Shown: positions 28,937 through 61,129, numbered from the stretch's first letter. The stretch is DNA of 64,000 nucleotides from Raillietiella orientalis (GCA_036172245.1 JAYWIR010000088.1:186001-250000); one strand, 5' to 3'. The notes: generated from the letters alone by a model not told the origin. Program-made: numbers and translations.

Positions 28937-29530
28937 TCATCGATGTTCACACTGTATGAGTGGACGTTGTGGTAGACATGCTAGGATGATGAGTTGTGTT
29001 CCACCTGATGTGCTTGCGTTCATCGCAGAAGCATTGTTTGGGCTTTGTGAACACCGTACTGAATGGCCTTGCGTTCCACACTTGTTGCATTTTCCCGGAA
29101 GACACGCCGCCATTCTGTATAATGTACCTGCAGCGCCCGTAGAAGTCGGGAAATTTTTTTTTTTTACTCTGACGCGTTGCAATTGGCGTCTGATTTACCT
29201 GCCAATGTGCTCAGGTACAAAATCGCCTACTTTGTACTGGGGTGCGGGTTTGTGCCCATTTATGACGTTGGTCCGTAACTCCAGTGAGTGGCACCGCTCC
29301 TAATGCTGTCATCACGGTAACGAAGTCGCCGAAACTTTTCGCTGGTCGCGGGAATTGGAAGTGGAGGCAGTCTTGATTTCTGCCACAGAAATGGCGGGCA
29401 CGATGTCTTCAATAACCTCCATGTCAATTGGGGCGTTGCCGTTAAATAAACACGTACAGCACCCACAAGAATCACAACCTTTAAGCGGGGACGGTGAGCG
29501 TAGGAGAAACATGTCCCTCCGTTGAAGTTT
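28937..29530 (-). mobile_element. Retrotransposon 5'UTR and decayed ORF1 remnant
   Basis: GGACATG 5' motif at 29510-29516, MEVIEDIVP start similar to other ORF1s, and a CNKCGTQGH zinc knuckle. Confidence 0.65.
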
Positions 29531-31372
29531 TTTCACCCGGTCACGCCGAGGCGTTTATTGTGTAAACCAGTTCGGAACGCAGTTCCCAACTGAATATAAA
29601 AGAAGTTGAAGGGGATACTCCACCGGCACGGAGGTCGGGACAACCAAAAGTACTGAACGGGGGAGGGCAACGGGCACAACAGAAAAATAAATATGGTGGT
29701 AGCAATCCTCGAGTCCGCTCCTTTTGCACCAGGATTAGCAAGAAAACACATCGGGAAACTTACAGAGTGAACGGGAATAGGGTATGAGAAAAACGAATAA
29801 AAGGAGATACGGGACAAGCGTCACGGTATACGATATTCCTATTTTCAATCCGGCATTAGATGCCGGTAATGTTCAGAACTTGTAAGAGCTGACGGTACCT
29901 TAGAGAATTAATAAAGGCGGCCTCTATCGAAATGACCTCATCGCTGGCTGATGGTGTTGAGCACTTCACAGGCCATACCAATGTCACGGCTGAAACCCAT
30001 GGTTGCGAGGATTGCGCTCATCGAGTCTCCTTCCGGCGCGATGACCAGCCGTGGCACCTCTCCTGCGGTGTCCAGGTGCAGGAGTGCTGCTGCCAGGCTC
30101 CGCCACAGTACCTCGAGGGCACCCCAGTACAAAAGCGGATGTGGGATCCAATCTTCGTTCCCCACCCGGCACAGTCCGAGGATGACATCCCTAAGATAAT
30201 GCCGTTTAGCTGCTCCTTGAGCTGCAATCTCCAGTGGAAGACACGTTGCACGTCTTCTGATGCGTGCAAGCACTGAAGTGTTCACTCCAAGAGGAGAAAC
30301 CACAAGGTCTGCAGGGGTAACACTCAATAGTTCGCTTAATCGAAGGGGTGCTGTAGCCACAGCATGCGGAGTGGCAACATCCACCATCTAGCACGTATTT
30401 CAATGCAAGATAGTTTTTGTTATTCCTGCAATGGTGCAGGAAAACTCACTTCTGCGTTGGGCTACTCTCGTCTTTCTCCCTGAGGCCACACCGCTGCGTG
30501 AAGGGATGTGGCGGCCACAGTGGACCACTTCGCCGTGTCTTGCATCTCCACTTTCTGTGGTCATTGCAGCAGACTCTGAAGGGAGTGACGATCTTCAGTG
30601 CTGATTCCTTAGAATGCAGCTCAAGACTTAGTAGTCTCTTGCCGCCAAGCTTTCAAGTTTATTGGTTTGCAGAAGATACTTAGTTGGCTTTCTACTAGGG
30701 AGGCGACTTGCCTCATGGTGAAGCCGAATCGCCGCATCCTGTTGTGAGTGTCCGGCACCAGCTAGAAGGGTCCTTCGCTCTCGGCGCATCTCCGCAAGAT
30801 GACACGTAGAGGCGCACACTTCGGGGAAGTCTACAGCTTGCCACAGAGTGCCATCACTCGGAACTGCACTTGCTACTCGATTCCGATCCAGCGTCTGGAT
30901 GCCTAAGGCGGCATCTGGTAGCGCTGTCTCCAATTCTTTGAGACATCCTGGACCTCACAGGTACATTTAGAGCGTTCCTCAACTGGCGTTGATCCTGGAG
31001 CTTTGCCTCTCAAGAGGGCAGGCGAATTAGAAACGGAGCGTAGGAGGGACGGAACGAAGGTGTTCCAAACTGCCTCTCGTTCCGGCAGGTTTAACTTGTC
31101 ATGGAAGAACGGACCGGCAGAGAAGTCACCCTTCTGCAGTCTTTGCCCCGCAAGTCGGCGAGTGCTCCCCTGAGGAACTTTCAGCTTTTTTTTTTTTGCC
31201 GGACAAGTAACCGAGTTGCGTTTTCGTGGGTTTTGTGAAAATAAATGCCTTGAGGTAATGCAGTGAATAGCCTCTTGAAGGCAGTCCTACCGGGCTTCGG
31301 CAATACGCAAGATGCACAAAGGAACGCCAAGATGGATGAAATACTTGTCTGTCGCTATTTCCTGGAGGGTGC
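29531..31372 (-). mobile_element. L1/Tx1-like 3' portion (post-RT region, zinc finger, 3'UTR, 3' terminus)
   Basis: FIHLGVPL near 31330; ORF 29938..30387 C-terminal block; AATAAA-hairpin end at 29531-29559. Confidence 0.8.
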
Positions 31373-31374
31373 AG

Positions 31375-32410
31375 TTTTTCACCCGGGTGAGCCGGGGCTT
31401 CTATCATTAAAATTTTTCACAATACAATAAATTTCATAATAAAGTCTTGAGTTTTTCGTTTTTCTGCTTGTTTTTCAGTCGGGACATATCGCCGACTGTC
31501 TTGAGGCACTTGTCCTTACCGACCCGAAGGCCTATAAGGTCGTCCACACTGGCGAAGGAGCGGGAAAAACAAAAATAAAACAAAAAAAAAGAAAACGCCT
31601 GGGGGTAATGTTCTTCGGGAGGGGGAGGAAGGGAAGGGATCACGGCATGCCGTGAGGAGGCCTCTGCATCCGGTCACGGATGCGGACGAGTGCCTGTAAA
31701 TGCTTTCGAAGTCGGCGCCAACGGCAGGCCTTCTCTAAGGAGATGGCTGCCCAGTGGATGGCATTCCGACTGGTATGTCCTCTCCTTGACGCGGTCCACT
31801 TGTCCAGTATTCCGCGTATGCAACAGAGCACTGCTAGACATCCAAAAGCTGGCAAGGCGTCCCGCATCAGGAGTCGAAAGATGTTTTTCGAGTCGCCCCG
31901 CGGAATGTTCAAGATCGACGAGAGTCGGTCCCACATATCACGAAGGGCAACGCACTCTAGGATCAAGTGAGGGAAGGTCTCTCTTTCCTCACAGTCTGTA
32001 CAATTAGCATCCACACTCCCCGATGTCCAGTGAGACAAGCGCGCTCTGCTTAAAAGTCCCCAATGGAGCAGAAGCAACGCCGTCTCCTGCCACTGCAGGG
32101 GAAGGGTGCCGTTGTCCCAAGACGCCGGGGGCCACTTCACCTCCTCCGGAGGTAGTTCGAGCAGCGCGCCCCAGCCTAAAAGTCCATTCGGCGGGACACT
32201 CGGGGTACTAGCGTCCGCTAGTTCCCTGGACGTCCACGCCTTGAATAATTTTTTCCTGCCTCCGATGAGGCAGGACACTTCCCACGATGCCTCCTGCTGG
32301 CTGTCCCGAACTTCCCTGAGGGAGGGCAGCACTGTGGCAAGGGGGGTGAAGGAGGCCCACAGAAGCTTCCGTGGGTTGCGGACGATCTCCTGCAGTGGCT
32401 GACCAGCGTG
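31375..32410 (-). mobile_element. 5'-truncated L1/Tx1-like copy (ORF2 C-terminus and 3' end)
   Basis: ORF 31640..32332 has GLLGWGALL..LLLLHWG..CTDCEERETFPHLILEC. Terminal hairpin CCCGGCTCACCCGGGTGAAAAA. Confidence 0.88.
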
Positions 32411-32806
32411 ACTGCCTCTACGGAGGCAGTTGTACCTCTTTTCGCAGGACTATCAAACTAATGTTTATCTCAAAGGGATGAAGAATAGCAGGGAAAGCGT
32501 CTTGCATAATCCCAGACGCTTCTCATGTTTGGATCTGTTCTCGTCTGAGTTCAACGACTCCATCCAAGCATATTCACCGTGTTTGCCTGGGGCACGTTGT
32601 TCAACTAAGTTGGGACGCAGCGCTTGTGGAAGATCCCAATCTGTTATGTTTGGGTCGTTCGATCTGATCTTCTATAGTGACTAAGAACCTTGAATGCAGC
32701 AAGATCCGGTGACGGGTACGATTCGTAGTGGACATGGTTCGGTGCCCCTTGCACTCCACCATGTGATGTCTCTTGGGGCATTACGGAGTGATTCCACTCA
32801 ACGAGT

Positions 32807-34370: not shown

Positions 34371-34459
34371 ATATGTTTAAACAAAGTTTAAAAATGGGAA
34401 TCAGCCACCTGTGCAAACAGTTTCTTGCTCCTATTCATGCTCACGCGAGCTCTCCGACA

Positions 34460-35650: not shown

Positions 35651-35727
35651 TTGTAGTCATGGGCTACGTTCTCCCGAAACCCAGCTTTGTCGGGGGGTTC
35701 CCCACTATTAGCTGCTGCTGTGGAAAC

Positions 35728-35855
35728 GTTGCAAAAATTTCGGAGAAATGTTTGCAAAATTTTGCAACATACAAAAGTGAGTGAGTGTAAGTTGCAAAAA
35801 ATTTTTGCAACTTACACTTCCGTCTTCCTCGCCGACGGCGAGGAAGACGGAAGTG
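35728..35855. repeat. Cluster of perfect palindromes
   Basis: TTGCAAAATTTTGCAA (35752-35767); 17-bp arms 35784-35800/35802-35818; 20-bp arms 35815-35834/35836-35855. Confidence 0.95.
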
Positions 35856-35859
35856 AAGG

Positions 35860-37115: not shown

Positions 37116-37151
37116 GAGTGTACAGTTTAAAGGAACAAGAAATGTGTATTA

Positions 37152-43950: not shown

Positions 43951-45830
43951 CCAGCAGCCATACGGTGCTCCGATTTGCGTTTCACCGGCGAGCGAACGGT
44001 AAGCAGCACTGCTGGCTGGAGATCACGGTCGCCACCGTCCTCCCTGGTGCTGCACGAATTCGAGTGCTCGTCTCCGGCTAGCGTCGTTGGACGGTCGGCG
44101 GTGAGCTTTCGGTCCTTCGCGGCGTGCGCTGCGCGCCTCAGGGCCTTAGCCCGGCGCGCTACGGCTTCCGCGCGGGTGATGCGACGTGCGGCATTGATAT
44201 CAGACTCCGTTTCTGAGTCCGATTGAAGCGCCGGCGCTTCGCGACTCTCCTGCCGTGTCGATTCGGAAGTACTCACGGATGGTACCGCGGACACTTCCTT
44301 CTTCGCGGTCAACGGGGCATCGCTCCCGGTGATCGCAAGTTTCTCGCTATGAGCGGTCGCGGCGGTATCTTTTGCAGTAACAGAGGGAACCTTCGCGCGA
44401 GTTTTCTTCAACGCGCTGCTGTTCCGTGCCTTGCAATCGCTCTTGGATGGAGGTAGCGGAGAATTTTTGGGAGACTTTACGTTCCTCCCTTTTTCCAAAA
44501 CCGTCCACACTCCGCCCGTTACCTCGGTGCGTTCGGAGATCTTTGTCAGGAACGCCTCCGGGCTTTCCTCCCCAACCGCCTGGGGCGCCGCTTTCGCTGC
44601 AACCTTAAAAGGCGGCAAAGGCGCAGCCTTTGCGGCAGTGGGGAGATCGCTCCGCGTCTGCCTCGCTGGGGAGGATGCAGCTGGTTGCGGCGTGCTTTCA
44701 AGCAACGCACCGCTGCTTTCGCCGGCTTTTTTCGCCGGACCTCCAGTCGCCTTCGTGAGGTTTCCTACTGAAGCCTCCGAAATGGACAGAGGTTTCAAGG
44801 AGACGGTTACCACGCAATTTCCATTCGCGTGTCCTCCTTTCGCGCTGTCGCACGGTGCGACTGGTTTCACTGACCCCAGTCCGCGAGTAGTATTTCCGCG
44901 CTCAGCTACGGGGTCAGTGACGGTACGCGCGGAGTCCTCTAGTCCTCTTTTAATAGGCTTTCCTGCCGCGCGATTGCCCTTATTTCGTGCCCGGACTCCT
45001 TACAATAGCGGCACTTCCGAAAAGGGCATCCTTTACCCCGATGCCCTTCTTTGCCGCATTGCTGGCACGCTCGAGTTTTGCCAACGAACCACAGATGAAC
45101 GACCGTGCCGTTGACCTGTAGCGTGGCAGGCAGCGTGCGGCGGTTAGGAACGGTAACTCTAACCGCAGGAAATCCTGTGTGGACAGAGGGGAATTTTTTG
45201 TATACACTCCCCTTCCTCCACACCGCATGAACGCTGGCGAAATTCGCCAACGCGTCCAACGACTGTTTGTTGTTGATCTCCGGCTCGACGTCAGAAAGAA
45301 CAACCACAAAAGACTCGTCCATCGCGGAAGGAAAAACTTTTTCCCCGCAAATGGACAAAGGAGTGCGGAGGAGCCGCTGCAAAAGCTCAGCCTGCTTCCA
45401 TCGGAACTTTACATAGCCCAATGCTGGAACAGGCATGAGTGCTATGAGGTCCTCCTCCTGCACTCCCACACGGAAAAGTTCGTCCGCGAACTCTTCTCCA
45501 GCCTTGTCTACCCCACTTACATTGTAGCGAAGAGCAGGTTTGTAGCCCTGGGCTACATATGCCTGCATCTCCGCTTGGTCGGGGAGGCATCCTTGCACGG
45601 TCGCAGATGCAGCCACGTCCGCGAAGCTCCTGACCGGTGTCGCGGGGCTCGCACCGGCTGTCGTCATCGTTGCATCTGGGAGAAGTTCCTGAACCATTGG
45701 TTGTACGACTTCCAGGTTGTCTTGTACACTGCTCATCCTTAGGAGTGTGCAGCGGGACACACAAGCACAACCAAACAGCAGAGCAACGGAGAGACACGAA
45801 TTCACGTCCTACTTGCATGAAGGCGAATGT
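43947..45830 (-). mobile_element. Retrotransposon 5'UTR and ORF1 (RRM-like region, two CCHC-type knuckles, low-complexity tail; ATG ~45736; frameshift near 44950-45000)
   Basis: ORF 44939..45805 RSFADV..GYKPALRY..CQQCGKEGHRGKGCPFRKCRYCKESGH; A/K/P/S-rich ORF 43947..44870; GGACGTG at 45803-45809. Confidence 0.9.
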
Positions 45831-45845
45831 TGAAATTTTTTGAAA

Positions 45846-47490
45846 TTTTTTACCCGGTCACGGCGGGACGTTTATTGATGTAAACGAGCTAGAAACAGTT
45901 GTTTCGAGCCCTCCAGTATGAAGACATGCAGCGGAGATTCACCACTGGCACGCAGGCCGCGAAAACGGAAGAACACGGACGACTGACGGGAGTCCAAAAA
46001 CAATAACAAAACAAAACAAAGAAAAAAATAAAAAAAAAATAAAAAAAAAATTTAAACTGGAGGAGTGGGCCAAGGAACTTTGGGAAACTCAAAGGTTTCA
46101 GTACCAAAACCACTGCGGAGCATAGAGGGAAAAGGATGCGAGAACAAAAAAAATCAATTAAAAATAAAATGAGGGCGGATCACCGGGTTCGTCGTTCTAA
46201 GCCGTTTCTCATCCGGCGATGGATACCGGTTAGCTGCTCCGTTGTGTCTTCCCATAAATGTCGCCACCCAGCTGCCGACCTGATGAAATCTGCTGCCTTC
46301 CTGGTGACACAACATTGCTGTCCAGTGCTCTCCAGCACGTCTCGGACCGTGACGATGGCGCGGATGCAACCAACAGTGGAAATCGTCGCAGCCATCGAAA
46401 GTCGTTGTGGCTGGAAGAACCGTCGCAGCACTTCTCGAGCGGTGTCCCCCGGAAGCGGGAGAGCTGCTGCTAGCCTCCGCCAGAGTTCCTGGAGGGTACC
46501 GCAGTCCATAATAAGGTGCGGGAACGACTCCGTCGCCCTGCACCGGGCATAGTAGGGAGAAGCCACCCCACCGGAAGCTCGGTGGCGCCGCTCGTTGTAG
46601 CGCAAGCCCCAGTGCAAGAAGAGCAAGACGTCTTGCTTCCATGCAAGGGGAAACACCGAACCGTCCAAACACCAAGGAGGGATTGTAAGTTCCTCGGGGG
46701 CAACACCTAGTGCTTCTCCCCACCGAAGTAATCCCTTTAATGTTGCACGCGCACACAGGGGGGAAATCCATTGCTCAGCACACAGTGCGAGCATCCGGAA
46801 CTGCACTTGCGGTCCCATTCTCTCCATCGTAAGGATGCCAAGACCAGCATCCCGACGTGGAGCCGCGAGGTCTTTCAGGCGGATCCTGGATCGCGCCGCA
46901 TCCCTGAGTGCGATCCTTAGCTATCGATTTGACCACTCTCTGGCCGCATAGGGGCTGTCGAAGACAAAAAACAGGGGTCGGAGGAGGGGTGCCACGAAGC
47001 TGTTCTAAATAACCGCCCGTTCCGGCAAGGTAAACTTGCCGTTAATGAACGGGCTGGCGGCCAACTTTGCCCTATGATGGGAGTCCTTCCACGCCTTGGC
47101 CGCGCCGAGATCTACCAGCGGAACTCCAAGGTCCTTGAAATACCCTTCTGTTGGGATCCCCAGGCCGATCCACTCGGACTGCCCCACCCACGACGCGCCC
47201 ACAGGAACGACCACGCTCTTCTTTTTCACGCTCACATGTCCGAGCGTGGGAGTCTCTCGGGCGAGAAGTTCCGCGATTCTCCCGCGCTCATTGCACCCTC
47301 GCTTCCGGAAGCCATCTCCACCCATTCGCCGAGGGGAAGGATGTTCCTTGGCTTTGGGGACTTTCGTCCAGCCTTCTTGCTGGGTGCCGTGGAGATGGAG
47401 GCTGAGCTTCCGGCCTCTACCTCGGGGTGGGAAGTGGCTGACTTCTGAGGGGAAGCCGGACGCCTTACGGCCTTCTTGCCAGCCTTGAAA
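45846..47490 (-). mobile_element. 3' part of an internally deleted copy (ORF1 tail joined to post-RT region, zinc finger, 3' end)
   Basis: KKAVRRPASP (ORF1), then YFKDLGVPL, GLLRWGEAL..ESFPHLIMDC; terminus at 45846-45876. Confidence 0.85.
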
Positions 47491-47493
47491 GTT

Positions 47494-48110
47494 ATCACCC
47501 GGGTACGCCCGGAGCGTTTATTCAAAAACTCTACAAGAAAACGTGGTTTAAGACCCTACTAACGGCCACACAACATTGTACCTGCCGGGACGCCGGGACG
47601 CAGCCTGGCGGGACGATCCGCGGTAGTGGAGAAGGATGGGGAACAAAACAAAAAGAAAAATAAAAGAAATAAAGAAAAACAAAAAGTTTGGAGGGAAGGG
47701 AAGGGATTACGGTCCACTGGGAGGAGGTCCCATCCTTAGCAGGATGCCATCGAGGTCCATCCGGATTTCAACCAGCTGGGGCCATCCTGCAGCTCTTCTC
47801 AAGGAACGAGAAGCATACGGGATGACGTCCCTCTCGTAATGGCCATCTTTTTCGTCACGCATTTCGCTCCAAGCCGCCACGATTCCTCGGATGCAGCATA
47901 GGGCTGCGAGGGTAGCGGCAGGCTCCAGGGCGTCTTGCACGAAGAGTAGCCGAAGAACGTCTCTGGGGTTGCTGCCCACTGAGAGCCCGAGAGTCATCCC
48001 GAACCGTTCCCATAGGGGTTGGAGGGCAGGTGTGAGAAGCCATTCCCGCTCCCCACACCTGGCACACTCAGTCCTCACACTCCCCCGCACCAGGGGAGTG
48101 TAAGGCCTGA
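47494..48110 (-). mobile_element. 3' fragment of an L1/Tx1-like copy
   Basis: CARCGERE..ALCCIRGIV; terminus AATAAACGCTCCGGGCGTACCCGGGTG at 47496-47522. Confidence 0.88.
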
Positions 48111-51100
48111 GTTCCCATAGGCCCCGCTACGGCCAATATTTCATGGGACCTGCCAGGAAGCTGGTTCTGAGGCCAGTTTGTCCTCGGCAGCGGAGGGGAT
48201 AGGGGTAAAACAAAAAGAAAAAATAAAAATAACGAAAAAAAACTATTTGGAGGCCGGGAAGGGATCACAACCCGCTAGTGGAAGAGATTATCCTTTCCAG
48301 GATGCCCTCGAGGTCCCTCGTCATAGCTCCCAGATGGAACCAGTCGATCGCGATTTGCAGGTAGCGACCCGCGTGTACGATGGGGTCCCTGTCGCTGCTT
48401 CCTCTGTTGGCTGCGCTGCAGGCGGCCACAATCCCTCGGAGGCAGCAGAGCGTTGCCAGGGTTAAGGCTGGTGGCAGGGCGTCTCGCACGAAGAGGGGTC
48501 TCACAACGTCTCTGGGGGTACTGCCGACCGGCATAGGGAGGGTCGTAGCATAACGTTCCCACAAGGGCCGGAGGGCAGCGCAGTCCACTAACAGATGGGG
48601 GAGGGATTCCTTCTATCCGCACACTGCACAGTTCTGTCCCACATTCCCCAACGTCCAGTGGTGCGGCGCGCGTTGCAGGGAAGACCAAAGTGCAACAACA
48701 ACAGCGCCGTTTCCTGCACTTGAGGGGGAAGGTGGAAAAGTCTTTGAACAACGGGGGCCATTCTAGGTAATCCGCCGGGATGCGAAGCAGCTCGCCCCAG
48801 CTCTGTATTCCATGCTGGTGAACGTTTGGGGTTGCGGCGTCTGCCAGTTCTCTCATTGTCCACCCGCTTAGATCCTTCTCCTTGCCCACTATCCGGCAGG
48901 AGACTTGCCATCTCGGCTTCCGGCTGTTTTGAAGCGCCCTTTGTAGGAAGGACAGCGCCGTGGCCAGTGGGGTCGTCTCCGCCCAAGTGCTTCTGACGGG
49001 ACACACGATCATGTTCCGCAGCGTGCAGCGGGTGTAGATTCCGGTACGCAGGCCGTTGCAGGATTCTTCACTGATATTGTTTATCTTTGCCCACGTTCCA
49101 ACTGTTTCTTCCAGCCATGCGCTGGAAGGGCTGCAGGCCATCCACCCGTTCTCCTTTGCCAGGGTGGCCATGCGTCCCAGGAGAAGTCCGCATCTTTTTA
49201 TTTTCCGGCCGGGGCACAGAAGAAAAGACGCGAGTCCTTCAGTCCCGGACACACGTCTGGCGAGAAGGCGGGCCGGAACGCACCACGGGGTGTTCCACAT
49301 TTTCGCTGCGATGGCTAGAGTTCGGCATCGCAGCTGGATCTTCAAGCGCTCCAGCGTCAGGAGCCGAAGACCGCCGTGCCGACGTGGAGCGCAGAAATCC
49401 TTCAGAGGAACACGAGGCCTCCCGTTGCCCCAGGGGGCGATGCGGAGAAGATCCTTTGTCCTCTTTATTTCTTTGGGGGCGGGGCAAACAAAAAGCAAGG
49501 GGTGGAGGATGGGGACCGCAAAGAGGTTTCAAAGTGCGGCCCGTTCCGGAAAGTGAAACTTGCCTTCCAGGAACGCGCCGATCGCCGTCAAGACCATTTG
49601 GAGGCAGCTGGATCAAGCTTCCGCAAGGGAGTAGTACCCCAACGGCACACCAAGGTACTCGAAGCACCTCGCCGTCCGGATACCCAGACGGACCCAGTCC
49701 TGCTGCCCAGCCCACGCCGCTCCAACTGGCATCGCCGACGACTTCGCCCTGTTAACCTGAAGTCCGGTCCCACGGCTGAGGAGATCGAAGAAATCTCCGA
49801 CCGCCTTTGCCGGGGTGGACATAGGTAAGAGGAGCAGAAGATCGTCGGCATACGCTGCTACGGCGGGCGTGCCGGGGCACGAGCTCGGCAAGGGGGCCAA
49901 AGTCACCGTGTATGCTCCCAGCACCAACTCAAAGTAGGTGCTGAAGAGCAGGGGACTCAGTCTATCGCCCTGCCGTATGCCCCGCCGCACCGGCACGCCA
50001 TACACAGTTGGTTTACTGAAAGAGATACAGATAATCGCATTCCACCAGCAAGAGCGCAGGTAGGCAATCAAGGAGGGTGGGAAGCCCATGCTTCGAAGAG
50101 CTCTAATAGGAGTTCCTGGTCAACACAGTGGAACGCCTTAAGGAGATCGACTGCGAGCGCTAGGGCCCCCTTCCCCGCTTGGGATTCCCTTCCCTGCCCT
50201 GCTGGCGGCCCCAAAGTGGTGTTGCCGATTTTCTTTCTTTCTTTTCATATCTCTGCAAGTGCACCCATGTGCTTGCGAAGAAGAAGTTGGCATCCATACT
50301 TCGCCCGGGAACAGCATAAGTCTGTTCCGGGCTAATTACGGATTCTGCCACCTGCCCCAGACGCGAAGCCCATAGCCCTGCGATCAACTTGGCGTCCGTA
50401 TTCACGATCGTGATCGGACGCCAGTTCTTTAAATCCCTGAGGTCTCCCCCTTTCGGCAGGAGCCTCACTCTGGCTGACCGAAACGAGGCGGGAACATCGC
50501 CTTCGTCTCGGATCAGCCTGATCAACTTAAGCAGCAGGGGTGCCAGCTCTTCCGCGAAGCTCTGAAAGAACTCCGCGGGCAAGCCGTCTTCCCCTGGAGC
50601 TTTACGCCTCTTGAGCCTTTTGATACCGGCGAGAATTTCGCCGGTGGTAAAAGGCTCATCGAGGCTTAACGACTCCTCCTCCCCTATTGCCGGGGCACCA
50701 TCCGGAAGCAAGCGCCGAGAGGCATCTTGGTCCGGGGGCGCCCTGGCGTAAAGGGAGGAACAAAAAGTTCTCACGAGATGCCGTGCCGAGCCGGGGACGA
50801 ACATTCCCATCCCTGGTCGTCCAGCAATCTGGCCGACCCGGATTGCCAGGCTTGGTGTTCGGCCCCGGCGCGGTACTCGGCGAGGCGACGGACATTAGGG
50901 GTTCTCGTACCGACGGGGCTGTAAATAGGACCGATGGTTGCGAGGGCTCTCGCCAAATTCGGGGAGCAGGCGGTGGAAGGGGAACTGCTCGCAGAACTCC
51001 TGGACCGATTCCTTAAATAGGTCCCAGTGATGAAGATTCCGGAGCGTGACGTCTCAGGAGTTCGCGAAGGTGTTCCTTCGAACCTGAGAGTCGCGTGCAC

Positions 51101-53690
51101 TCCCCTGGCGGATGCCACTCCCTGGATTTCGGTCCCTTGTCGCGAGGCCGCATCTCCAAAATTAGCCGGGAATGCTCCGACAGCGTCGACGCAATGTTGC
51201 CCCGTTTGCCGACCAGTGAACACAGGTCAGTGTCGAGGAAGACGTGGATGATGCTGCGGACCATTCTTCTCTCACCCGCGAACAGGTTGCGCGCACGCAT
51301 GGCGGCGCACAACTCGTTCATCGCGTTCTCTTGTGTTTCAGGCTCACCAGTTTGCAGTCGAAGATTGATATCTCCGGCTATGAACTGAGCCTTTCGTACG
51401 TTCGTGTCCGCCAGACAGTCGCGTTTCATGGATTCAAGCAACCTGGTACGGTTGCTGTGTCCCTTTTGTCGGCATGGGGCGTACACATTCGTGACGATCA
51501 GATCAATTGAGTCGGACCAGCCGAGAATCAGCTGAGCGACCCGACCGACGTAATCGAAGCGCACGCGTTTGACGGCAGCGTCGATGGCTGGCTTGACGAA
51601 GAACGCGACCCCGCAGGTGTTGCGGAGACCGCATTGCCGGTACATCCCCGCGATCGACTTGATCTCCTGGATGTCTGCCGCGGAGATCACGTGGATCTCC
51701 TGCAGCCGGGCAGCTCACGCAGGGTGTCGGCCGTATCTCGCCTGTTACCTTCGTCGCGCAGCCCGTTGACATTCCAACAGGCCGCGCGTATCCGACGGAG
51801 ACAGGCGAGCCCAGGTGTTAATCCTGGGAAAGTGGCTGTGAGGCATCCGTCACCTGCTGGGGCGGGACGCTAGGTGGAGGAAGAGGGTCAGGTGGTGAAG
51901 GCACCTGGTCTGCCTCCATGGGTAACGGCGCGCAGAGCAGGTCAACCACAGGTGGGGTCGCGCCTACCTGTTGGCCCTCCTCCATGGGCGGTGGCTGTTG
52001 ATGGTCGGCGACTGCAGGGGGGACTTCGCCCCCGTGCTTACCCTCCTCCATGGGGGTGGCCTGCTCGACGGCTTCCGAGCGTGGGAATTCCTTCTCCGGG
52101 GTACCCACGCTGGCGACGGCTTCCGTCTTCTCGATGGTGGAGGGGAGGCGCCTCTTGGTCTTCTGGGACTTGCGTTCCGACTTCCTGGGGGTGCCTCCGC
52201 GTAGGAGGATGTACTTTCGGGCTCTAGGTCTAACTCACTTGTGGGGCCTTCTTCGCAGGAGCCGGCCTTCGCAGGGCCTTGCGCGAGGGGTTCTCACGCT
52301 CGGCCAGCGTGACCGCGAGCTCCTCCGCCGCCTGCGCGAACGCGGCGTGCCGGCCTTCGACAGCCGCTATGTCGCGCGGCTCACCCTCTGTGTAAACAGA
52401 GGGTTCGCCTTCGCGTACCTCGGGCGCGGCGGGAACGGCTAGGGGAGGCTCGTCGCCCCGAGTGGCAGCCTCGGGAACGACGATGCGTTCCAGTGCCACC
52501 GTGCACTCGCGGAGAGTTTTCGATCGGTAACCGGGTTTTTTCGGCTTCGCGTTCTTCTCTGCTTTCACGTCTTGCTGGTGGGGAAGATTTGTTTCTTTGG
52601 GGCATTTACAACCTGCCAGCCCTCTTTTCCTTCCACTACTTGGAAAGGCCTATCCTCCGGATGTTGCGCCGGAGGTTGAGGTGCTGGCAGCTTCTGCCGG
52701 CCACTTTCAACTTTAGGTCTTGCGACCTAGTTTGCCTTTTTCACCGGCTCCTTTGTGGCGGCAGGTGGCAACAGGGTGGTACGCTTGGGGCACACGCCCC
52801 GAACGTGGCCCTGCTTCCCGCACAAGTGGCACTGTATATTCGGGTACCTTTTTCGGAGGTGTCCTACTGTATTACAGTATCCGCAGTAGCGGGGTTTCCC
52901 TACGAACCAGAGGTCTACCGGCTTTGGCAGACGTCCAGCTTGTGAGGTAGCGCTCTTCCCTCGTTCGCAGTTACACGTGCGGCGGCCTGCCCCCCGAAAA
53001 GGCTATTGTAGCCGCCGAAGATAGTGGCCTTTGGCAACAGCGTGTGTGCCTCACCGAACTTCTTAAGTTACTTACCAATCGCAGACCGCGTCATGCGGCT
53101 GGTGATGCCAGTAAGATGGACCACTGCGGAGCGGTCCATCGTGACTGGCAGGATCTTGCGCCCATCCATGATCAGCGGGGTGGTGATCAGACTTTGCACC
53201 AAGCTAATGTGCTTACAGACAACCTCGACGCGCTGACCCCCGCTAAGCACGGTGAGGCCGTCAAGATCCTTCTCCAGAGTATTGGCGTTCTGCAGCGCCT
53301 TCGTAAAGGCGCGTGCAGTTCGTAAAGGCCCATCAAAAAGGTTGCCTACCTGATAGACTAAGCTGGGCTTGTACCCAGCTGCCCGGTAGGCAGCCATCTC
53401 GGTCATGGCCTCCGCGCTGGGCGCGGCCACTATGGCGCTCCAGCTCCTTGCCTTGGGCGTCGAGGGCGATTTCGGGGCGGAAGCCCCTGAATCTGTAAGC
53501 TGTAGGGGTTGACAGGCGTCCCCCACACCTACCTCCATCGTGGTGTCCTCAGGCAAGGTTGCCATCGGACATCAACGATGTTCCACATTAAATAACCACT
53601 GATAAACCGCCTTACTTTCGACTCTCTCGGAAGCGAAGGAAAAACACGTCCTTCCCACCTTCCTTGGAAGGGGCCGGGTGCAACTAGGCA
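48110..53690 (-). mobile_element. Near full-length L1/Tx1-like non-LTR retrotransposon (ORF1 ~51800-53565; ORF2 APE-RT-zinc finger ~48265-51770), frameshifted
   Basis: APE: GVAFFV, NVYAP, AGDIN, LSEH. RT: KAPGEDGLPAEFF, WRPITIVNTDAK, EQTYAVPGRS, GIRQGDRLSPLLF, YADD, YLGVPLG. Then GGL and the C-terminal zinc finger. ORF1 has RSWSAIV..GYKPSL and CCHC knuckles. GGACGTG at 53645-53651. Confidence 0.95.
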
Positions 53691-54965
53691 GCGAGCTCCT
53701 CCACCGGTCGCTCGAAGGCTAAGTCATCGTTGATGGCCTCGGGGACGGACGCTGCCACCGTCTCGCTCGCCTCACTGTTGACATTGTCAGCAGAGGATTG
53801 CTCGTAGGTTGCGGCGAGTTCTTTGCAGCGTTCGACAACGTCGGGAACGCGCTCCACGACGACGCTACATTCTTTAATAATCTCGCTACCCTTCTGCTTT
53901 TTCTTGCGTTAAGCGACTTTTTTCTCGAGTTGACGTTCTTTTTCGACTTGCTGCCTCTTGCCACCTGCCACACAGGCTCCTGACCGTTTCCCTCGACCTG
54001 ATCGACGTTGTTCGCTGGGGACTGGGGTGCGGCCTGGGCCTTGGGCTCGGGTGGCAGAGCTTCCGCCACTAGCCTATTTTGAAGTACCTTGGCGCGTTTT
54101 CTCGCGTTCCTTGAGGACACAACGCGCACAGATGCCTGTGGGCACACCTACCGCGTGTGGCCCGTATTCCCGCACTCATTCCACTGCATGTTGGAGCACC
54201 TCTTCTTGAGGTGTCCCGACGTATTACAGAAGTCACGGTATTTGGGCTTCCCCACATACCATAGTTCGACGGTTTCGCCACCGACCACCAGTTTGTGGGG
54301 AGGAGTACAGCCCTCTTGGACGGTCATGCGTGAAGCCGTAAGGCCGCATTGCAGTTCGGTATATTCAGCAAAAAAACCAAGATTGGATCACAATGCATGA
54401 ACCGTCCCGTATCGCTGCAGTGCGGCGCGTAAGGACTCCCGACCCATCCGCGGTCACACCTAACAACTGGACCACCATACTTTGATCCACCGCAATGGGA
54501 AGGAGCCTGCGTGTTCTCATCACCACGGGTGTTTTAAGCAGACGGTGGGCAAGATCTGCCTGGTTGCAGATTACCTCAACGTACTACCCCCTGCTGAGGA
54601 TGGTCATAAAGATCTCTTCTTCCTGCACTTAAGGGCGCGCATCCACTTCGAGAATTGGCGCGCGCTCTCAACAGAATGGAGATGGCCTACCTTGTTGAGT
54701 AATTAGGGGTGATACCCCTTTTCCACCTAAGCAGTCAATTACGCCGCGGCTGCAGGTTTGGGGCTTCCACGACGGCGATCCACTTCCGCGTTGCAGCGGG
54801 GACCGATTTTGTCGTGGCGGATGTCCTCACCTCCATCGCCACTGGTGGTCATGTCATGCATCACTGCCTGATCAACCACCGAACCACAGAAAACTTCGCT
54901 ATAAGGTGAGGGTTGTCAGCACCGAGGAGCAACAAGAAAATGCGTCCATCGCGCAGAAGCAAGGC
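53690..54965 (-). mobile_element. 5'UTR and decayed ORF1 (likely 5' part of the copy continuing at 47490)
   Basis: LWYVGKPKYRDFCNTSGHLKKRC and CRECGNTGHTR knuckles; ends at LAFERPVEELAA. Confidence 0.8.
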
Positions 54966-54971
54966 GTTCCA

Positions 54972-57900
54972 TTTTCACCCGGATTTCGCCGAAGTGTTTA
55001 TTGAGAAATGAACTTTTACAAGGACGTGCAGTGGCTAGACCAATGTTCCAGCCACGCACGAAGTAAAAGCTTGCAGGGTCAAAGGTTGTCAGACTGGTAC
55101 GGAGCAAAACAACAGCAGGGGAAAGGGGAAAAACAAAAAAACTAAACAAAAAAAGTTGGTGGATACGGGAAGGGATCACTGTTGCTGCTGGGGCCGTTGA
55201 ATCCTTTTCAAGATGCCGGCAAGCTTTTGTATTCGCGCATACAGGTGGGATCATCGCGACGCCCTCCCCAGGAATTGGGCGGCGCCCTGGACGAAAACAT
55301 CCTTATTGCGTGGTGCTCCCGTACCTTGCTCCATGGGGCGACGATCCTGCGGATGCAGCACAGGGCTGCTGACGAGGCCGCATGCGGAAGGACGTCCGCA
55401 ACGAAGAAGACTTTCAATGCGTTCCTGGGGTGTCCGCAGGGGATTCCGATGGCTGCCACAAAGCGTAACCAAAGAGGCCGAGGGGCAACACAATCCACTA
55501 AGAGATGAAGGAGGGTTTTCCGTTCCCCACACCTAACACAGTTTGGATCGAGAGCTCCCCAAGTCCAGTAGTGCCGGCGGGAGTTGCAGGGGATTCCCCA
55601 ATGCAGTAACAAAAGAGCCCACTTCTCCCATTTTTAGGGGAGGGTGGAGTGTTCCATAGCACCTGTGGCCACTTCAGATGTTCAATGGGAACATCGAGCA
55701 GCCTGCCACAGCGCAGAAGTCCATTGGGAGGTGTACTCTGGGTCGCAGCGTCTGTTAACTGGCCCTTCTTCCACTCTCCCTACTTCTCCTTTCCCGAAAA
55801 CGTTGCTTTAACCTACCACTTCGCCGAAACATTGCTGTCCTGATCTTCCACATGGGAGGGCAGCACAGCAGCAAGGGGGTCCTTCCTGACCACCCTCGCT
55901 TGTTCGGATCCTCCAGGATCTCTCGGAGCGTAAAACTTCTGTAGCACCCAAACAGGAACCGTAATTGCTGTTGGGCGCATTGCATGCCGCACTGTGCCCA
56001 TGTGTGAACGGTTTCCTGGAACTAGGGCATACGGTTTGCGGGTCGACAGGTGATGCATCCTTGATTTTTCCGTGTCAGCGCAGCCACCCTCCGTAGCTGA
56101 AGTCCACATCTGTTGACACAGCGACGGAGTGCAAGAAAGTACGTGAGTCCCATCTTCCCGATGGCTTCCTTGACGAGGAGACGTGCAGTGACGCACCAGC
56201 AGGTGCATCACAACTCCTTCACAACAGCCAACATCCGAAACTGGAGCTGAAGCTCCAGCCGATCCAACGTCAGGATGCCTAGACCGCCATCCCGACGCAG
56301 AGCGTAGGAGCGCTTCAAGCTGACTCGGGTTCTCCGGTGGCTCCAAAGGGCGATACGGAGGAATATTTTCGTCTGTTTTTTGATCGTCTCTGTAGGGGAT
56401 CAAACAAAAGCCAGGGAACGGAGGATAGGAGTCACGAACTTGTTCCAAACCGCGGCCCATTCCTGCGGGAAAAACCTGCCTCCTCGGAACGGGCCAATCG
56501 CCGTCTACTTTTTGCTGGCAGTCGGACCACGCTTCCGCAGGGGAGTAGTACCCAACGGCACACCAAGGTACTTGATGTACCCGCCCGTGGGGATCCTTAA
56601 ACGGATCCTTTCCGACCGTCCTGCCCGCGAAGTGTCCGTATGTAGCAACGACGACTTCGCTCTGTTTACCAAGGGGCCTGTACCACGGCACAGCAACTCG
56701 AAGAAATCCTTGAGTGCCGATGTCGGGGTGGACCCGGGAAGCAGAAGCAGGTCTTCGGCATAGGCCAACACGGCAGGCGTGCCTGCACAGGAGCTCGGCA
56801 GGGTTGCCAAAGTCTCCCTGTAAGCTCTCAGCACCCACTCAAAGAAGATGCTGAAGAGCAAGGGGCTGAGCCTGTTACCCTGCCGGATGCCGCGACGAAC
56901 CGGCACGCCGTACACGTGTCGGCCGCTGAAATTAATGTTGATGTATGCGAAGCGCTATCAGGAGCGCTGTTAGGCGAGGAAGACGGCCGGAAATGCCAAG
57001 CGTTCCAGGAGCTCCAGGAGGAGCTCCTGGTCGACACAGTCGAAAGCTTTACGCAAATCGACTGGGACCGCAAGGGCTCCGGCCGCCGCATCTCCCCTCA
57101 GGCTTCCCTCCCCCCGGTCAGTAGACAGTCCAGGACTCTTCCGACCTAGCTGAGCCTCGCGTTGTTGCAACTGCCAAAAGGTGCTGGTGGGGAATAGGTT
57201 GGCTTCCATGTTTCGTCCGGGAACAGCGTGTGTCTGTTCCTGACTGACCACGGATTCCGCTACCCGTCCCAGTCGCTTAGCCCAGAGCTTGGCGAGCAAC
57301 TTTGCGTCCGCATTCACTACAGTGATGGTACACCAGTTGCCAACTTTGCGCAAGTCTCCTCCTTAGGAGAGGAGACGTACTCTAGCTGACCGGAACGAGT
57401 TGGGGACATCACCACGTTCACGGATCATCATACATAATTTGAGAACCAGGGGGGTGATCTCTGCCGTAAGCATTGATAAAATTCGGCTTGCTGGCCGTCT
57501 TCATCTGTTGCTCTAGGTTTTAATTTTGCGATGGCGGAGACAATCTCCGCCATCGTGAATTATTGATGTAAGGTGTGACGTTCGTCCTCCCGTAGCGCGG
57601 GCGCACCTTCTGGCAGCAGATGCTGCTGAAGGGAACGCTCTGGATTTTTTCTCGCGTATAGGGAGTGGTAAAAATCTTTCAAAAGGCGGCAAACCTGCGC
57701 TGGAGTTGAGCTCGCCTGGCCTTGTTCTTCCAGTAAGCAGGCAGACTTGTATTGCCAGGCCTGCCTCAGCTCCAGCCTTGTACTCCGCCAGGCGACGGAC
57801 GTCTAGCTTGTTGGTGAAATGACGTTCCCGGAGATAGTTCTTGTCGTTCCTCACGTCTTCGCCATGTTGCCCCGGTAATGGGAATCGCGTGTTCGCCGCC

Positions 57901-59690
57901 TTCCGAGCGTGGAAGTTCCCCATCTTGGGTTGTCCCGTTGTCGTCGACTTCTCCGGCTTCTACTGTTTCTTCCTCTCTAGACGGCGATATGCATTTCCTC
58001 GGTTTCTGGAACTTGCGTCCCGTCTCCCGTGAGGGTGCGTCCGCGGAGGAAGGTGAGCTTCCGTCCTCCCGGTCGGACTAAGCTGGGGAGGCCTTTTTTA
58101 CCGGAGCCGGCCTTCTCACGACCATGCGTGAGGAGTTCTCTCGCTCGGCCAGCGTGTTCGCCAGCTCTTCCGCCGCTTTTACGAATGCGTCATCCTCGCT
58201 GTCGGTGGGCGCGTCGCGCGACTCACATTCTGTTGAAACACAGGGTTCGTGCTCGCGAACGACGCTGGCCCGTATAAACAATTGGAGGGGGATTGTACCC
58301 GGGTGCTGTTTGCAGGCATGTCTAGGCGCTCGAATGCAACTGAGCACTTACGAAGAGTCTCGGTACGCGGCTTTTTCTTTGTGTTTGCGCCGTTCGCGAC
58401 TGTCTCCGTTTTCTTCTCGATTTCCTCCTTTTTATCTTTTTTGGCTTTTACGAGCTGCCATTCCTCTTCTACCTCTATGACTTCGGGGAGCTTGTTCTCC
58501 GATGTCGGACTGAGAAAAAAATTAACCACAGAATTAACATACTCATACCATCAAACATTTCCTACTTTTGAAACCTAGACTACATAATAGGAATCTTTCT
58601 AATTACCCAACTATTTACAGGCATTATCATCTCCATACATTACATCCCCATACCTCAGAAGCCTTTTCATCAATCAAGATAATGTACAACACCAATAACG
58701 GATGATTCGGGCCATTGGGGCGTTAGTTGCTGCACGCGGCTATTTTCCCATTCTCTTTTAGTTTCCCCGCGCGTTCCTCCTGCGCCTTTTTGCCTGCCGG
58801 AGGAATGGGGTTGGGGTGTTTTGGGCACACAAGCTGGACGTGTCCCTTCTCCCCGCGCAGGTGGCACTCGATTTTGGGGCATTCCTTACGGAGATGCCCT
58901 ACTGCATCGCAGTAGCCCCAGTACCCGGGCTTCCCCACGTACCAGAGGTCCACCGACTCGCTGGCGAGCTCAACTTTTTGGGGCAGCGTACTTTCCTCTT
59001 CAACCGTGACAAGCGCCCGGCCATACTTCCGAAGAGGCTTCCATAGCTTTCGAAAATTGTTGGCTTAGGCCACAATTTTCGAGTGCGTCACCGAACTTAG
59101 TAAGTTCGTCTTGACCGAAGAGCGCGTCATGCGGTTTGCAATACCGGTGAGATGGACCACGACGGACCAGTCCATCGACACCGGGAAGATAATACGTCCG
59201 TCCACGATCAAGGGGGTATTGATCAAGCGCTGGGCCCAGCTGAGGACGGATTGGCCATCAGGATCTTCACGTGCATTCATTTTTGGCAACGCTCTCCTGA
59301 AGGAGCGTGCCGCCTTCCCGTCTAACAAGGGACCTACCCTCTATACAAGTGAAGCTTTGTATCCTGATTCCCTGCAAGCGGCTTGCTCAGCCAATGATTC
59401 CGCGCTCAGCGCGTCACCATGGCGCCATGGTCACCATGGCGTCAACATGGCGTCATGGTCACCATGGCGCTCCAGCTCCTTGCCGGTGGCGGGGATGTTC
59501 CAGTGGAGATGCCTCCATCTCTAGGTTGCGCAGGTGGACAATCCTCCCCTACACCTACCTCCATCGCGGTGTTCTGAGGCTTCGCTGCCATTGGATACCG
59601 ACGATGTCCACACAAACACAAACACTAATAAAGCTTCCTGCCTTGCTCGCTAGCTCAGTGCAGGAGAAACACGTCCGCTGAAGCGGCGTG
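54972..59690 (-). mobile_element. Long decayed L1/Tx1-like copy (5'UTR, ORF1 interrupted by a NUMT, endonuclease deleted, RT, zinc finger, 3' end)
   Basis: GGACGTG at 59670-59676, ATG at 59591, CGYC-like and CHLR knuckles, DLRKAFDCV, GIRQGNRLSPLLF, YAED, YLGVPLG, CVRCGERKTLLHLLVDC; terminus at 54972-55002. Confidence 0.9.
58515..58708 (+). pseudogene. cob: NUMT: mitochondrial cytochrome b N-terminal fragment
   Basis: In invertebrate mitochondrial code: LMPSNISYFWNLDYMMGIFLITQLFTGIIISMHYIP / HTSEAFSSIKMMYNTNNGWF (TGA=W twice, one frameshift). This matches the cytb pattern PSNISYWWNFGSLLG..QILTG..MHY..AFSS..N.GW. AT-rich and G-poor relative to flanks. Confidence 0.88.
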
Positions 59691-59696
59691 TAGGTT

Positions 59697-61000
59697 GTCA
59701 CCCGGCTACGCCGGGCCGTTTATTTAAACTTTACAAAAAACGCGGTGTGAAATAAGGGGAGTGTTACCCACCTGCTCCCCCTGCATTGGGGTTGCCAGTT
59801 GTGCGTTGTCGAAGAGAGTGAGTTTCTCACCCTCGATTCTCACGCTGCGGTCTTCCCCTTTGGATTCCGGTTCATCGTTCTCTTGGCTAGACGGGGTGAG
59901 CCTCCAAATATTCGTGGACTTGCGTCCCGTCTTGTTTGGAGGCTCCTCCGCTGAGGAGGACGAACTTCAAGCATCCCGATCGGGGTCACCTGCCTCAGTT
60001 CTCATGGATGCGGGCGGCCTTCTCAATTTCTTTCGTGCCAAGTTCTCACAGCCGACGAGTTCGGCCGAGAGATCTTCCGTCGCCTGTTCTATGGCGGCGT
60101 CCTCGAGGGCGTCGAGCGGCTCCCCCTCTACGCAGACGGTTCGCCTGCGACCGTCACGGCATCGGCGTAGACGAAGGGGGGATCGCTCTTCCGGTGGAGG
60201 CATGGAGTGCCTCCATATGCTTCAAGGCCATCGAGCATCTGCGGAATTTTTCGCGGCGCAGTTTTTTGTGCGGGGCGTTTTTCTACTTTTTCGGATTTCC
60301 TCGGGCCTTCACCAATTGTAACCCTCGCTCTCACCAGCTTTGTCGGTACATTTTTCCGTCGCGGACCGCGTTTGCTTGCTGGGTTGAGGATCCTCATTTT
60401 GTGTCGGCCCTTTTTTCATAAAACTACCAGTACTGGTAGCTTTTGCAGTTTTCTGGCGCATGTATCTTGCGCTTCAGACAGAGCTGCGGGTACCGGGTTT
60501 TCCGTTTGGGGTATGCGCTTCCCATCTGACCTTTTTTCTTACAAACGAAGCATGCGATGTTCGGGCACCGTTTCTTCAGGTGTCGCGGAACATCGCAGTG
60601 CCCGCAGTATATGGGTTTCTCCAAGTACCAGACATCCACGGACTCGTTTTCGAACTGGATCTTGTGGGGAAGCCCTTTATTTTCCGTAAGTGTGATGTTC
60701 GCAGCTGCCAGCCCGCTGAAGAGCCCACCGTACCCTTCAAGAACGTTCGACTTGGCCCATAACGCCGCGTTATGGGCCAAGTCGAACATAACGTGTTCGG
60801 TGCCCAATTCCAGCAATTTCTCATGCACTGCCTTTTTTCCATTGGACAGTTGATGCCCTTTAGGTGCAACAACCTCGATTGATCTTGTGAAGAGAAGACC
60901 TTGAGAACGTTGAGTACGATGGGGATCCTTAACAAACGCCGAGCCAGACTTGCTTCTTTGCAAGTGAGCTCGATGCACTGATCCTCACTCAGCACTTTTT
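59697..61000 (-). mobile_element. ORF1-only derivative with intact family 3' terminus
   Basis: CGHCDVPRHLKKRCPNIACFVCKKKGQMG, EDLSAELVG, PMQGEQVGNTP, then within ~40 nt AATAAACGGCCCGGCGTAGCCGGGTG. Confidence 0.8.
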
Positions 61001-61129
61001 CGAGACGTTAGCCTTATTCTCCGAATTTCCCTCAACTTTTTTTCCCTTCTTGTTGCCGATTTTCCCATTCCCTTTCTTTATACACCGTTGCACATGCAAC
61101 CATGTGCACGCGAAGAAGAGGTTGGCCTC

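What the first reader, a model, noticed from the sequence alone, without database searches (positions are those of the whole stretch)
29510..59724. Head-to-tail stacking: 3' ends land 17-42 nt from the next copy's 5' motif
At four junctions (29517-29533, 45810-45851, 54948-54975, 59677-59698) one copy's terminal hairpin abuts the 5' end of a different, diverged copy. This suggests targeting of the family's own 5' end, repeated use of a regenerated target, or HeT-A-like use of the upstream 3' end as a promoter. Tx1-clade elements are known to be target-specific, but I see no tRNA, snRNA or rDNA target here.
Basis: partly seen in the sequence, partly recalled or inferred. Interest (0 to 1): 0.7.

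Follow-up and report, generated by a model that had tools for sequence, protein, structure and literature searches.

The report
LINEs restacking in their duplicated targets
The head-to-tail jumping genes here are repeat insertions into the short target copy left by an earlier insertion, as known for insect R1 elements; the unusual part is that each family's target is a conserved coding motif inside its own relatives' genes.

Summary
The four junctions are real. Genome-wide, 57 of 1,411 element 3' ends lie 12-42 nt before a 5' motif; a shifted control gives 0. The 5' motif is not the target. Each spacer reads 3-nt tail end + target-site duplication (TSD) + short leader. Each LINE family inserts at its own conserved coding motif in sister families: endonuclease GDFN (sense), RT KAFD or DAKL (antisense), linker GFGEG, ORF1 sites. 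A later copy re-uses the duplicated site. By eye, 55 of 57 junctions join a tail and head of one target class. Stacks also form on 5'-truncated copies that have no head. Neighbours are no more alike than other copies. TSD re-use is published for R1 and SINEU-3. My searches found no paper on LINEs aiming at relatives' coding motifs, but this scan noted it on other DNA of this genome. Open: families A and B stack far more than D, and two families with about 90% identical endonucleases (partial domain) use different sites, which leaves room for RNA read-through guidance. Promoter borrowing is untested.

The parts
29510..29516 (-). Junction 1: 5' motif (GGACATG) of an old GDFN-class copy; only a short ORF1 start survives downstream
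   Evidence: ORF1 hit E 1e-4 near 29281-29150
29517..29532 (-). Junction 1 spacer: A-rich tail end + GDFN-type target copy (ACTTCAAC) + short leader
   Evidence: relatives of this tail land on D-F-N codons in L200, L208, L210; L196 shows a like junction
29533..31238 (-). Junction 1 upstream copy: tail hairpin 29533-29559 and ORF2 aa 713-1150, A/E/K lineage
43980..45809 (-). Junction 2 downstream copy (family A2): head and ORF1
45810..45849 (-). Junction 2 spacer: tail end, a 10-nt local duplication, 15-nt GDFN-type target copy (45822-45836), 12-nt leader
   Evidence: same junction in L212, L213, L214; solo heads and tails on GDFN codons in L215, L229, L230, L220, L222, L224
45850..47235 (-). 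Junction 2 upstream copy (A2): tail hairpin 45850-45876 and a deleted ORF2 3' part; its 5' side is lost
47483..53670 (-). Full-length F-type copy inserted in sense into ORF1 of the B copy at the PSKAGKK codons; TSD copies 53662-53670 and 47483-47491, head 53645-53651, tail 47495-47522. The fifth tail, not stacked
47238..54947 (-). Junction 3 downstream copy (family B): head 54941-54947 and ORF1, split by the F copy
54948..54974 (-). Junction 3 spacer: AAA + 14-nt KAFD-antisense target copy (54958-54971) + 10-nt leader
54975..57890 (-). Junction 3 upstream copy (B): tail hairpin 54975-55002 and ORF2 aa 284-1162, joined by an apparent deletion to the ORF1 above it
57877..59676 (-). Junction 4 downstream copy (C-like): head 59670-59676 and ORF1
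59677..59697 (-). Junction 4 spacer: CAA + 12-nt target copy + 6-nt leader
   Evidence: the nearest solo head (L231) sits on like codons
59695..59752 (-). Junction 4 upstream copy: 46-nt 5'-truncated stub with hairpin 59698-59724; degenerate TSD-like copy at 59741-59752
   Evidence: inference from one relative and a degenerate match
59763..60995 (-). Host ORF1 of another family, whose C-terminal codons hold the junction-4 target
61082..61945 (.). D-type head (61231, plus) inserted antisense at the RT DAKL codons of a minus-strand host (ORF2 aa 485-532 at 61225-61082)
62002..63499 (+). K-type head and zinc-knuckle ORF1; upstream flank is the antisense of the endonuclease region after LQEIH

Best explanation
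The elements are two-ORF, APE-endonuclease LINEs of the L1/Tx1 group, one lineage split into ten or more families. Each family prefers one site in the conserved coding DNA of sister families. Target-primed reverse transcription starts at a fixed register three bases after CCGGGTGA, with no poly(A), and duplicates about 10-15 nt of the site (9 in full-length A, 24 in one B copy). Either duplicate can be hit again by the same family or by one that shares the site. If the downstream copy is full length, the result is tail + NAA + TSD + leader + GGACGTG, which is the 17-42 nt junction. If it is truncated, the result is a headless stack. Shown: TSDs, fixed sites, class-matched junctions, headless stacks, independent copies. 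Inferred: that the endonuclease reads a short core at the nick, and that something longer (extended endonuclease contacts or pairing of read-through RNA, as proposed for R1) picks the full site. Which duplicate is re-used is not settled.
For: TSD found in 26 of 98 sampled tails against 1 of 98 in a shifted control; 22 with offset up to 3 are 10-15 nt long. Full-length pairs share 9 (A), 14-15 (D) and about 10 (F, K) bases at both ends, and D's copies vary with the host. Family A: 51 of 76 tails on GDFN codons, 21 on A heads, 4 elsewhere (by eye; 8 non-A rows of 84 dropped). Family B: about 47 of the first 100 of 130 on KAFD, 18-20 on B heads. Family D: about 52 of the first 100 of 106 on DAKL, 1 on a head. 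Junction classes: 23 GDFN, 21 KAFD, 11 GFGEG, 2 other of 57 (by eye). Three copies of one host-specific TSD around two truncated B copies in L125; headless stacks also in L010/L011, L238 and the C1 stretch. Neighbours in stacks are 93.4-96.9% alike, inside the family range of 92.9-97.9%. B hosts belong to several families with synonymous differences. Published parallels: PMC2718515, PMC4494074, bioRxiv 10.1101/158386.
Against: Stacking is uneven: A 21 of 72 and B 18 of 65 on-site tails against D 1 of 53 (Fisher p 3e-5 and 8e-5), although D keeps a full 15-nt TSD; plain TSD re-use does not predict this. B2 heads carry a subfamily-fixed version of the target that mismatches the 3' copy in the one solo pair examined, so part of the 5' 'TSD' can come from the element. 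Specificity is loose: 58 of 98 sampled tails have no clade sequence behind them. The paired age test of upstream against downstream copies was inconclusive. At junctions 1-3 the outer TSD copies were not found (nest with deletions), so those junctions are read through relatives.
Confidence: 0.85

Rival explanations
1. Heritable RNA-guided targeting: read-through RNA carries the donor's 3' flank and pairs with the nicked target. A copy lying upstream of a head would then send its progeny to heads, which makes 5'-end targeting real in families A and B. This adds to the best explanation rather than replacing it.
For: No poly(A) and a fixed priming register: A at positions 2 and 3 after the hairpin in 93 of 98 tails. 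C and F endonucleases are 88-91% identical over about 153 aa (81% over 242 aa for the decayed window copy) yet use different sites. The A/B versus D stacking gap. One off-site A copy (L235) has 12 bases like the usual donor flank at its 3' junction that the candidate 5' copy lacks. R1 is proposed to use read-through pairing (PMC2718515 passages).
Against: C and F sites share a short core (C-S-Y-C-S-A-A, read by eye) that one endonuclease could read. Head-stacked A tails are only weakly clustered on the tree (54 of 500 shuffles as low). The L235 case has 48 unexplained bases at its 5' end. A scan of 98 tails for carried-over flanks gave no clear case.
Confidence: 0.25
2. The shared GGACGTG 5' motif, or chromatin at the element promoter, is itself the target.
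For: 57 junctions against 0 in the control; 10 of 76 head-pattern places have a tail before them (by eye).
Against: The motif is shared across families, yet 55 of 57 junctions pair within a target class. The distance to the motif is fixed per family by TSD plus leader. Headless stacks exist. D heads carry the motif and are almost never hit (1 of 100 listed D tails).
Confidence: 0.05
3. Template jumping during one reverse transcription event joins the 5' end of one RNA to the 3' end of another and gives dimers.
For: It predicts exact tail-to-head joints within a family, and B2 heads carry target-like bases of their own.
Against: Host-specific TSD variants occur three times around stacked truncated copies (L125) and on both sides of the upstream copy in L238. 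Partners differ by 3-7%, in line with separate ages.
Confidence: 0.07
4. HeT-A-like arrays: the upstream copy's 3' end serves as promoter, or the arrays are telomeric.
For: Several junctions lie near contig ends or on small contigs.
Against: 45 of 54 A-D heads have no upstream tail. Junctions hold a TSD and no poly(A). No run of four telomere-type repeats in the 972 kb of fetched loci (four repeat types tried on both strands).
Confidence: 0.04
5. Unequal crossover, segmental duplication or misassembly multiplied one original dimer.
For: The A junction sequence is nearly identical in about 20 places. Five identical off-site D flanks show that some duplication exists in the assembly.
Against: Neighbours are no more alike than background. 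Junctions occur in at least five lineages with different spacers. Upstream partners range from 46 nt to full length.
Confidence: 0.04

Closest known systems
R1 tandem arrays in Drosophila rDNA (PMC2718515, passages read)
   Same: APE-type LINE, 14-bp TSD, tandem copies separated by one TSD, off-site insertions in the same species, proposed 3' read-through pairing with the target.
   Different: R1 targets 28S rDNA; here the targets are coding motifs of sister LINEs. R1 adds at the 5' TSD; the side used here is not settled. The endonuclease here matched L1 structures, and no R1 or TRAS chain was listed.
Target-specific Tx1-clade LINEs: Tx1L in Tx1D, Tx1-Mar in Mariner-N4_AMi, Tx1-8_Crp and Tx1-4_AMi in LTR elements, Tx1-9_AMi in Harbinger; SINEU-3 tandems sandwiching a TSD (PMC4494074, passages and section 15 read)
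   Same: L1/Tx1-group LINEs that use other transposons as targets; sequential insertion giving tandems around one TSD.
   Different: The targets listed there are DNA transposons, LTR elements, RNA genes or microsatellites. None is a catalytic-motif codon stretch in the element's own lineage, and none has ten sister families each with a different site.
Double insertion as a general source of TE tandems (bioRxiv 10.1101/158386, passages read)
   Same: [quoted passage not shown]
   Different: There it follows from ordinary site preference; here the site lies within relatives.
Zepp and ZeppL L1 elements of green algae (as described in PMC8226300, passages read)
   Same: L1-group LINE that inserts into existing copies and builds nests.
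   Different: Zepp forms one cluster per chromosome of one family. Here many families hit fixed motifs in other families, in many clusters, with many dispersed off-site copies.
HeT-A/TART telomeric arrays (recalled; search listing only)
   Same: Head-to-tail order.
   Different: They attach to chromosome ends through poly(A) without a TSD (recalled). Here a TSD is present, poly(A) is absent and most copies are internal.

Membership tests
L1-group APE LINE | ORF2 with N-terminal APE endonuclease and RT | tested here: met
   Intact relative L095: Exo_endo_phos 15-222 and RVT_1 463-734; endonuclease best matches human L1 EN structures; RT fragments in the window
L1-group APE LINE | ORF1 with CCHC zinc knuckle | tested here: met
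   zf-CCHC in L093 ORF1 and at window 62105-63499, there just under the cut-off
L1-group APE LINE | 5' truncation and TSD from target-primed reverse transcription | tested here: met
   26 of 98 tails with a TSD within 1-1.5 kb, control 1 of 98
Tx1 clade | RT groups with reference Tx1 elements | tested here: inconclusive
   Named near hits are fish, tick and amphibian RTs at 26-40% identity; one low-ranked hit is named Transposon TX1. The 12-row clade is 100/100 but on a long branch, and the tree held no verified Tx1L, Keno or Kibi
Tx1 clade | Target specificity (one target in over 20% of flanks, the criterion of PMC4494074) | tested here: met
   A 51 of 76, B about 47 of 100, D about 52 of 100, E 8 of 25
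R1 elements | Insertion in 28S rDNA | tested here: not met
   No Rfam match beyond one chance hit in the window; flanks translate as LINE ORFs
R1 elements | Tandems spaced by one TSD (works-like test) | tested here: met
R1 elements | Addition at the 5' TSD only | tested here: inconclusive
   A: 8 of 12 junctions with the downstream copy more diverged, solo baseline alike; in L125 the upstream copy came second (one case)
HeT-A/TART arrays | Poly(A) joints without TSD at chromosome ends | tested here: not met
   TSD present, tail ends in NAA; no telomere-type repeat in fetched DNA
HeT-A/TART arrays | Promoter in the upstream copy's 3' end | not testable with these tools
   No RNA holder listed
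Zepp-like elements | One cluster per chromosome, centromeric or telomeric | not testable with these tools
   Assembly in 491 contigs; contig C5 alone has several clusters

The most novel reading that the evidence does not exclude
A LINE lineage in which the insertion site is inherited as RNA rather than as protein. Each copy's read-through 3' flank guides priming, so one founder insertion sets up a new family address inside a relative's gene. Copies stacked on their own head pass on head-targeting. About ten sister families would have split the lineage's conserved motifs among them this way, with little change in the endonuclease.
Probability: 0.22. Interest if true: 0.85.

Novelty: new variant of a known kind. 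Interest (0 to 1): 0.5.

Why it matters
The stacking itself is ordinary double insertion. What it exposes is a set of close sister LINEs with different 10-15 nt targets, two of them (C and F) with endonucleases about 90% identical over the part compared. That is a natural series for a standing question: how much of APE-LINE site choice comes from the endonuclease and how much from RNA-DNA pairing. The answer bears on programmable LINE-based insertion. Aiming at conserved codons of relatives is also a route to safe harbours and to disabling competitors, a target type that the papers I read do not list.

Tried and rejected
tRNA and Rfam targets: none in the window. Metagenome scan for the tail motif: one hit, L234, with no LINE sequence, taken as chance. 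Sequencing runs: no RNA holder listed. Laying three contig runs on an A copy showed the element in one run and no tail-to-head joint; contigs collapse repeats, so nothing is concluded. Age test of stack partners: inconclusive for A; the B and C runs were discarded because subfamily mixture and interruptions inflated the distances. Tree test for a head-stacking sublineage of A: weak (54 of 500 shuffles; 2x2 p 0.046 on a sample enriched for junctions; 2 rows dropped as short or not A). Search for carried-over donor flanks: of five KAFD-like B junctions with odd downstream DNA, one was a headless stack, one a short insertion in a deleted host, one an on-site insertion with unknown downstream DNA, one a rearrangement and one could not be read. 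The C/F tail tree used too loose a pattern and was cut; I rely on the compact list. Telomere repeats: none. Host genes in the window gave only an aspartyl protease fragment, so the host group is unknown. Look-alike stretches in other genomes of the scan: none. Paper searches found no report of LINE families targeting relatives' coding motifs. The library lacks most subscription papers and Repbase Reports, and I opened no supplements; those of PMC4494074 list Tx1 targets and may bear on this.

Full report
Observation. On the minus strand the window has five 3' ends of the form AATAAAC, GC hairpin, CCGGGT(G/A)A, at 29533, 45850, 47495, 54975 and 59698. Four are followed after 16, 40, 27 and 21 nt by GGACRYR and a T-rich leader; an ORF1 follows, clear in three and a weak remnant at junction 1. 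The window is G000:C88:186001-250000 in a 210-Mb assembly. The exact tail pattern occurs 1,411 times. In 57 cases GGACRYRTT follows within 12-42 nt; the same search at 62-92 nt gives 0. So the adjacency is real and enriched, but it concerns 4% of tails.

The elements. An intact relative has an APE endonuclease plus RT in ORF2 and a zinc-knuckle ORF1; the endonuclease matches L1 structures best. Full-length copies are 5.6-5.9 kb. Eleven copies from this genome and one unnamed metagenome protein (P0004, 64% identical to a window RT piece) form one clade with 100/100 support on a long branch. The nearest named proteins are animal RTs at 40% or less. L1/Tx1 group is safe; Tx1 clade proper is not proven. 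Family letters are mine.

What lies behind the tails. I fetched the first 100 listed tails and analysed 98 distinct ones. Forty have clade sequence directly behind them, at recurring ORF2 positions: about aa 64 antisense (8 of 25 family E tails), aa 573 antisense (KAFD, family B), aa 153 sense (GDFN, A), aa 56-58 and 1070 antisense. One of the 98 is a head junction. Family-wide listings, counted by eye, agree. A: 51 of 76 on GDFN codons, 21 on A heads, 4 elsewhere (8 of 84 rows were other families or unclear and were dropped). B: about 47 of the first 100 of 130 on KAFD, 18-20 on B heads, and most of the rest still begin TCG. D: about 52 of the first 100 of 106 on DAKL, 1 on a head. These patterns end in a letter that excludes T, which loses about a quarter of off-site rows, so on-site shares are somewhat overstated. 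Heads give the mirror image: among 76 distinct places listed, the 54 heads of A-D split into 45 in the family's host motif and 9 behind a tail. B hosts come from several families with synonymous changes, so these are separate events.

What the spacer is. In 26 of 98 tails a duplication of 10 or more bases was found upstream within the fetched 1-1.5 kb, against 1 of 98 in a control; the 22 cleanest are 10-15 nt and start at about base 4 after CCGGGTGA. Bases 2 and 3 are A in 93 of 98, and there is no poly(A). Full-length solos share the same frame at both ends: 9 nt for A in 5 of 5, 14-15 of 15 for D in 4 of 4 with host-dependent variants. The spacer is therefore NAA + TSD + a leader of 0-12 nt. 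By eye, 23 of the 57 junctions are GDFN class, 21 KAFD, 11 GFGEG and 2 other, with tail and head of one class in 55; clustering of 30 fetched junction loci agrees.

The four window junctions. Junction 1: relatives of the tail land on D-F-N codons (L200, L208, L210) and one repeats the junction (L196); the head is old and its family is the least certain. Junction 2: family A2, the same junction in L212-L214, solos on GDFN codons; a 10-nt local duplication explains the long spacer. Junction 3: B tail, KAFD copy, B head. Junction 4: the nearest solo head (L231) sits in codons like those just upstream in the window, which makes the upstream partner a 46-nt stub in a host ORF1; the TSD match is degenerate. 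The fifth tail belongs to a full-length F copy inside ORF1 of the junction-3 B copy, with a TSD at both ends. Deletions have fused several pieces, and the outer TSDs of junctions 1-3 were not found.

Sequential re-use. Stacks form without a head. In L125 a 486-nt B1 piece and a 925-nt B2 piece are flanked and separated by three copies of one host-specific KAFD variant, and the upstream piece's TSD includes one base that follows the older copy, which suggests it came second. L010/L011, one pair in the C1 stretch and L238 are like cases. Neighbouring A copies are 93.4-96.9% alike, within the 92.9-97.9% range of all pairs, which argues against local duplication or one-step concatemers. Which TSD copy is used in general could not be told.

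Mechanism. Shown: fixed nick register, TSD, family sites, re-use. Inferred: a short core read at the nick, since off-site copies keep it (B: TCG in 15 of 15 sampled tails; E: C-A at bases 5-6 in 22-23 of 25), plus a longer determinant. Three results leave room for read-through RNA as that determinant, as proposed for R1 (PMC2718515) and as an earlier scan note suggested. C and F endonucleases are 88-91% identical over about 153 aa but use a linker site antisense and an ORF1 site sense. A and B stack on heads far more than D. One off-site A copy has 12 donor-flank-like bases at its 3' joint. Against: C and F sites share a short core, head-stacked A copies are barely clustered, and no clear flank carry-over was found in 98 tails. 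In single copies checked, A's own GDFN codons and E's own region differ from their targets, in line with sparing their own ORF2; I did not test this family-wide.

Comparison. Tandems spaced by one TSD are described for R1 (PMC2718515, passages), for SINEU-3 of the Tx1-Mar system (PMC4494074, passages and one section) and in general (bioRxiv 10.1101/158386, passages). Tx1 families that target other transposons are listed in PMC4494074. Zepp nests into itself (PMC8226300, passages). PMC7265360 (passages) describes short RNA-target pairing for SART1. Seven searches found no paper on LINE families that aim at conserved codons of their own lineage; Repbase and most subscription papers are outside the library. 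This scan has noted the motif targeting and the TSD-spaced tandems on other DNA of this genome. I had written down the motif reading before opening those notes; they are not independent support.

Verdict. Observation confirmed; interpretation partly right. The stacking works like R1 tandem formation and is a known process. The target system behind it is a new variant of target-specific L1/Tx1-type LINEs. Interest 0.5.

Noticed in passing
window 47483-53670: Full-length F-type copy inside ORF1 of a B copy, with an internal repeat of the ORF2 C-terminus near 47731-48648.
   Followed up: partly
full-length copies (window F, one D, one B2): 3 of 8 copies not interrupted at KAFD read KAFH, which removes the TCGA core of family B's target. 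Could be survivor bias or escape; small sample.
   Followed up: no
Full-length copies of families A-D are almost all on site or stacked, while truncated copies are often off site. Either 5' joining needs target likeness, or full-length off-site copies are purged.
   Followed up: partly
B2 heads, e.g. C5:2440100 region, L034: B2 heads carry a subfamily-fixed version of the KAF target that differs from the 3' copy in the host, so the element seems to bring part of its own landing site.
   Followed up: partly
L131 (C1:11508086): A B2 tail inserted in sense at the TCGA in the D codon just before KAFD, on the strand opposite the usual site.
   Followed up: no
L053 (C53:299427): Another family's tail is inserted antisense a few bases into an A head that is itself stacked.
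   Followed up: no
L235 (C22:3215020): Off-site A copy whose 3' joint holds 12 bases like the usual GDFN flank; a candidate 5' TSD lies 48 unexplained bases from the element.
   Followed up: yes
P0004: Unnamed JGI metagenome protein, 64% identical to a window RT piece, falls inside the clade, so close relatives exist in another sample.
   Followed up: partly
window 5374-15379: A further decayed RT-bearing region (ORF2 hit at 5374-5790, weak RVT_1 at 9852-10322) with GC-rich ORFs up to 15.4 kb; not classified.
   Followed up: no
window 15911-16294: Short eukaryotic aspartyl protease match (Pfam Asp, E 2e-4), possibly a host exon.
   Followed up: no
C73, C86 (two), C89, C118: Five D tails with an identical off-site flank, which points to segmental duplication or uncollapsed haplotypes in the assembly.
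   Followed up: no
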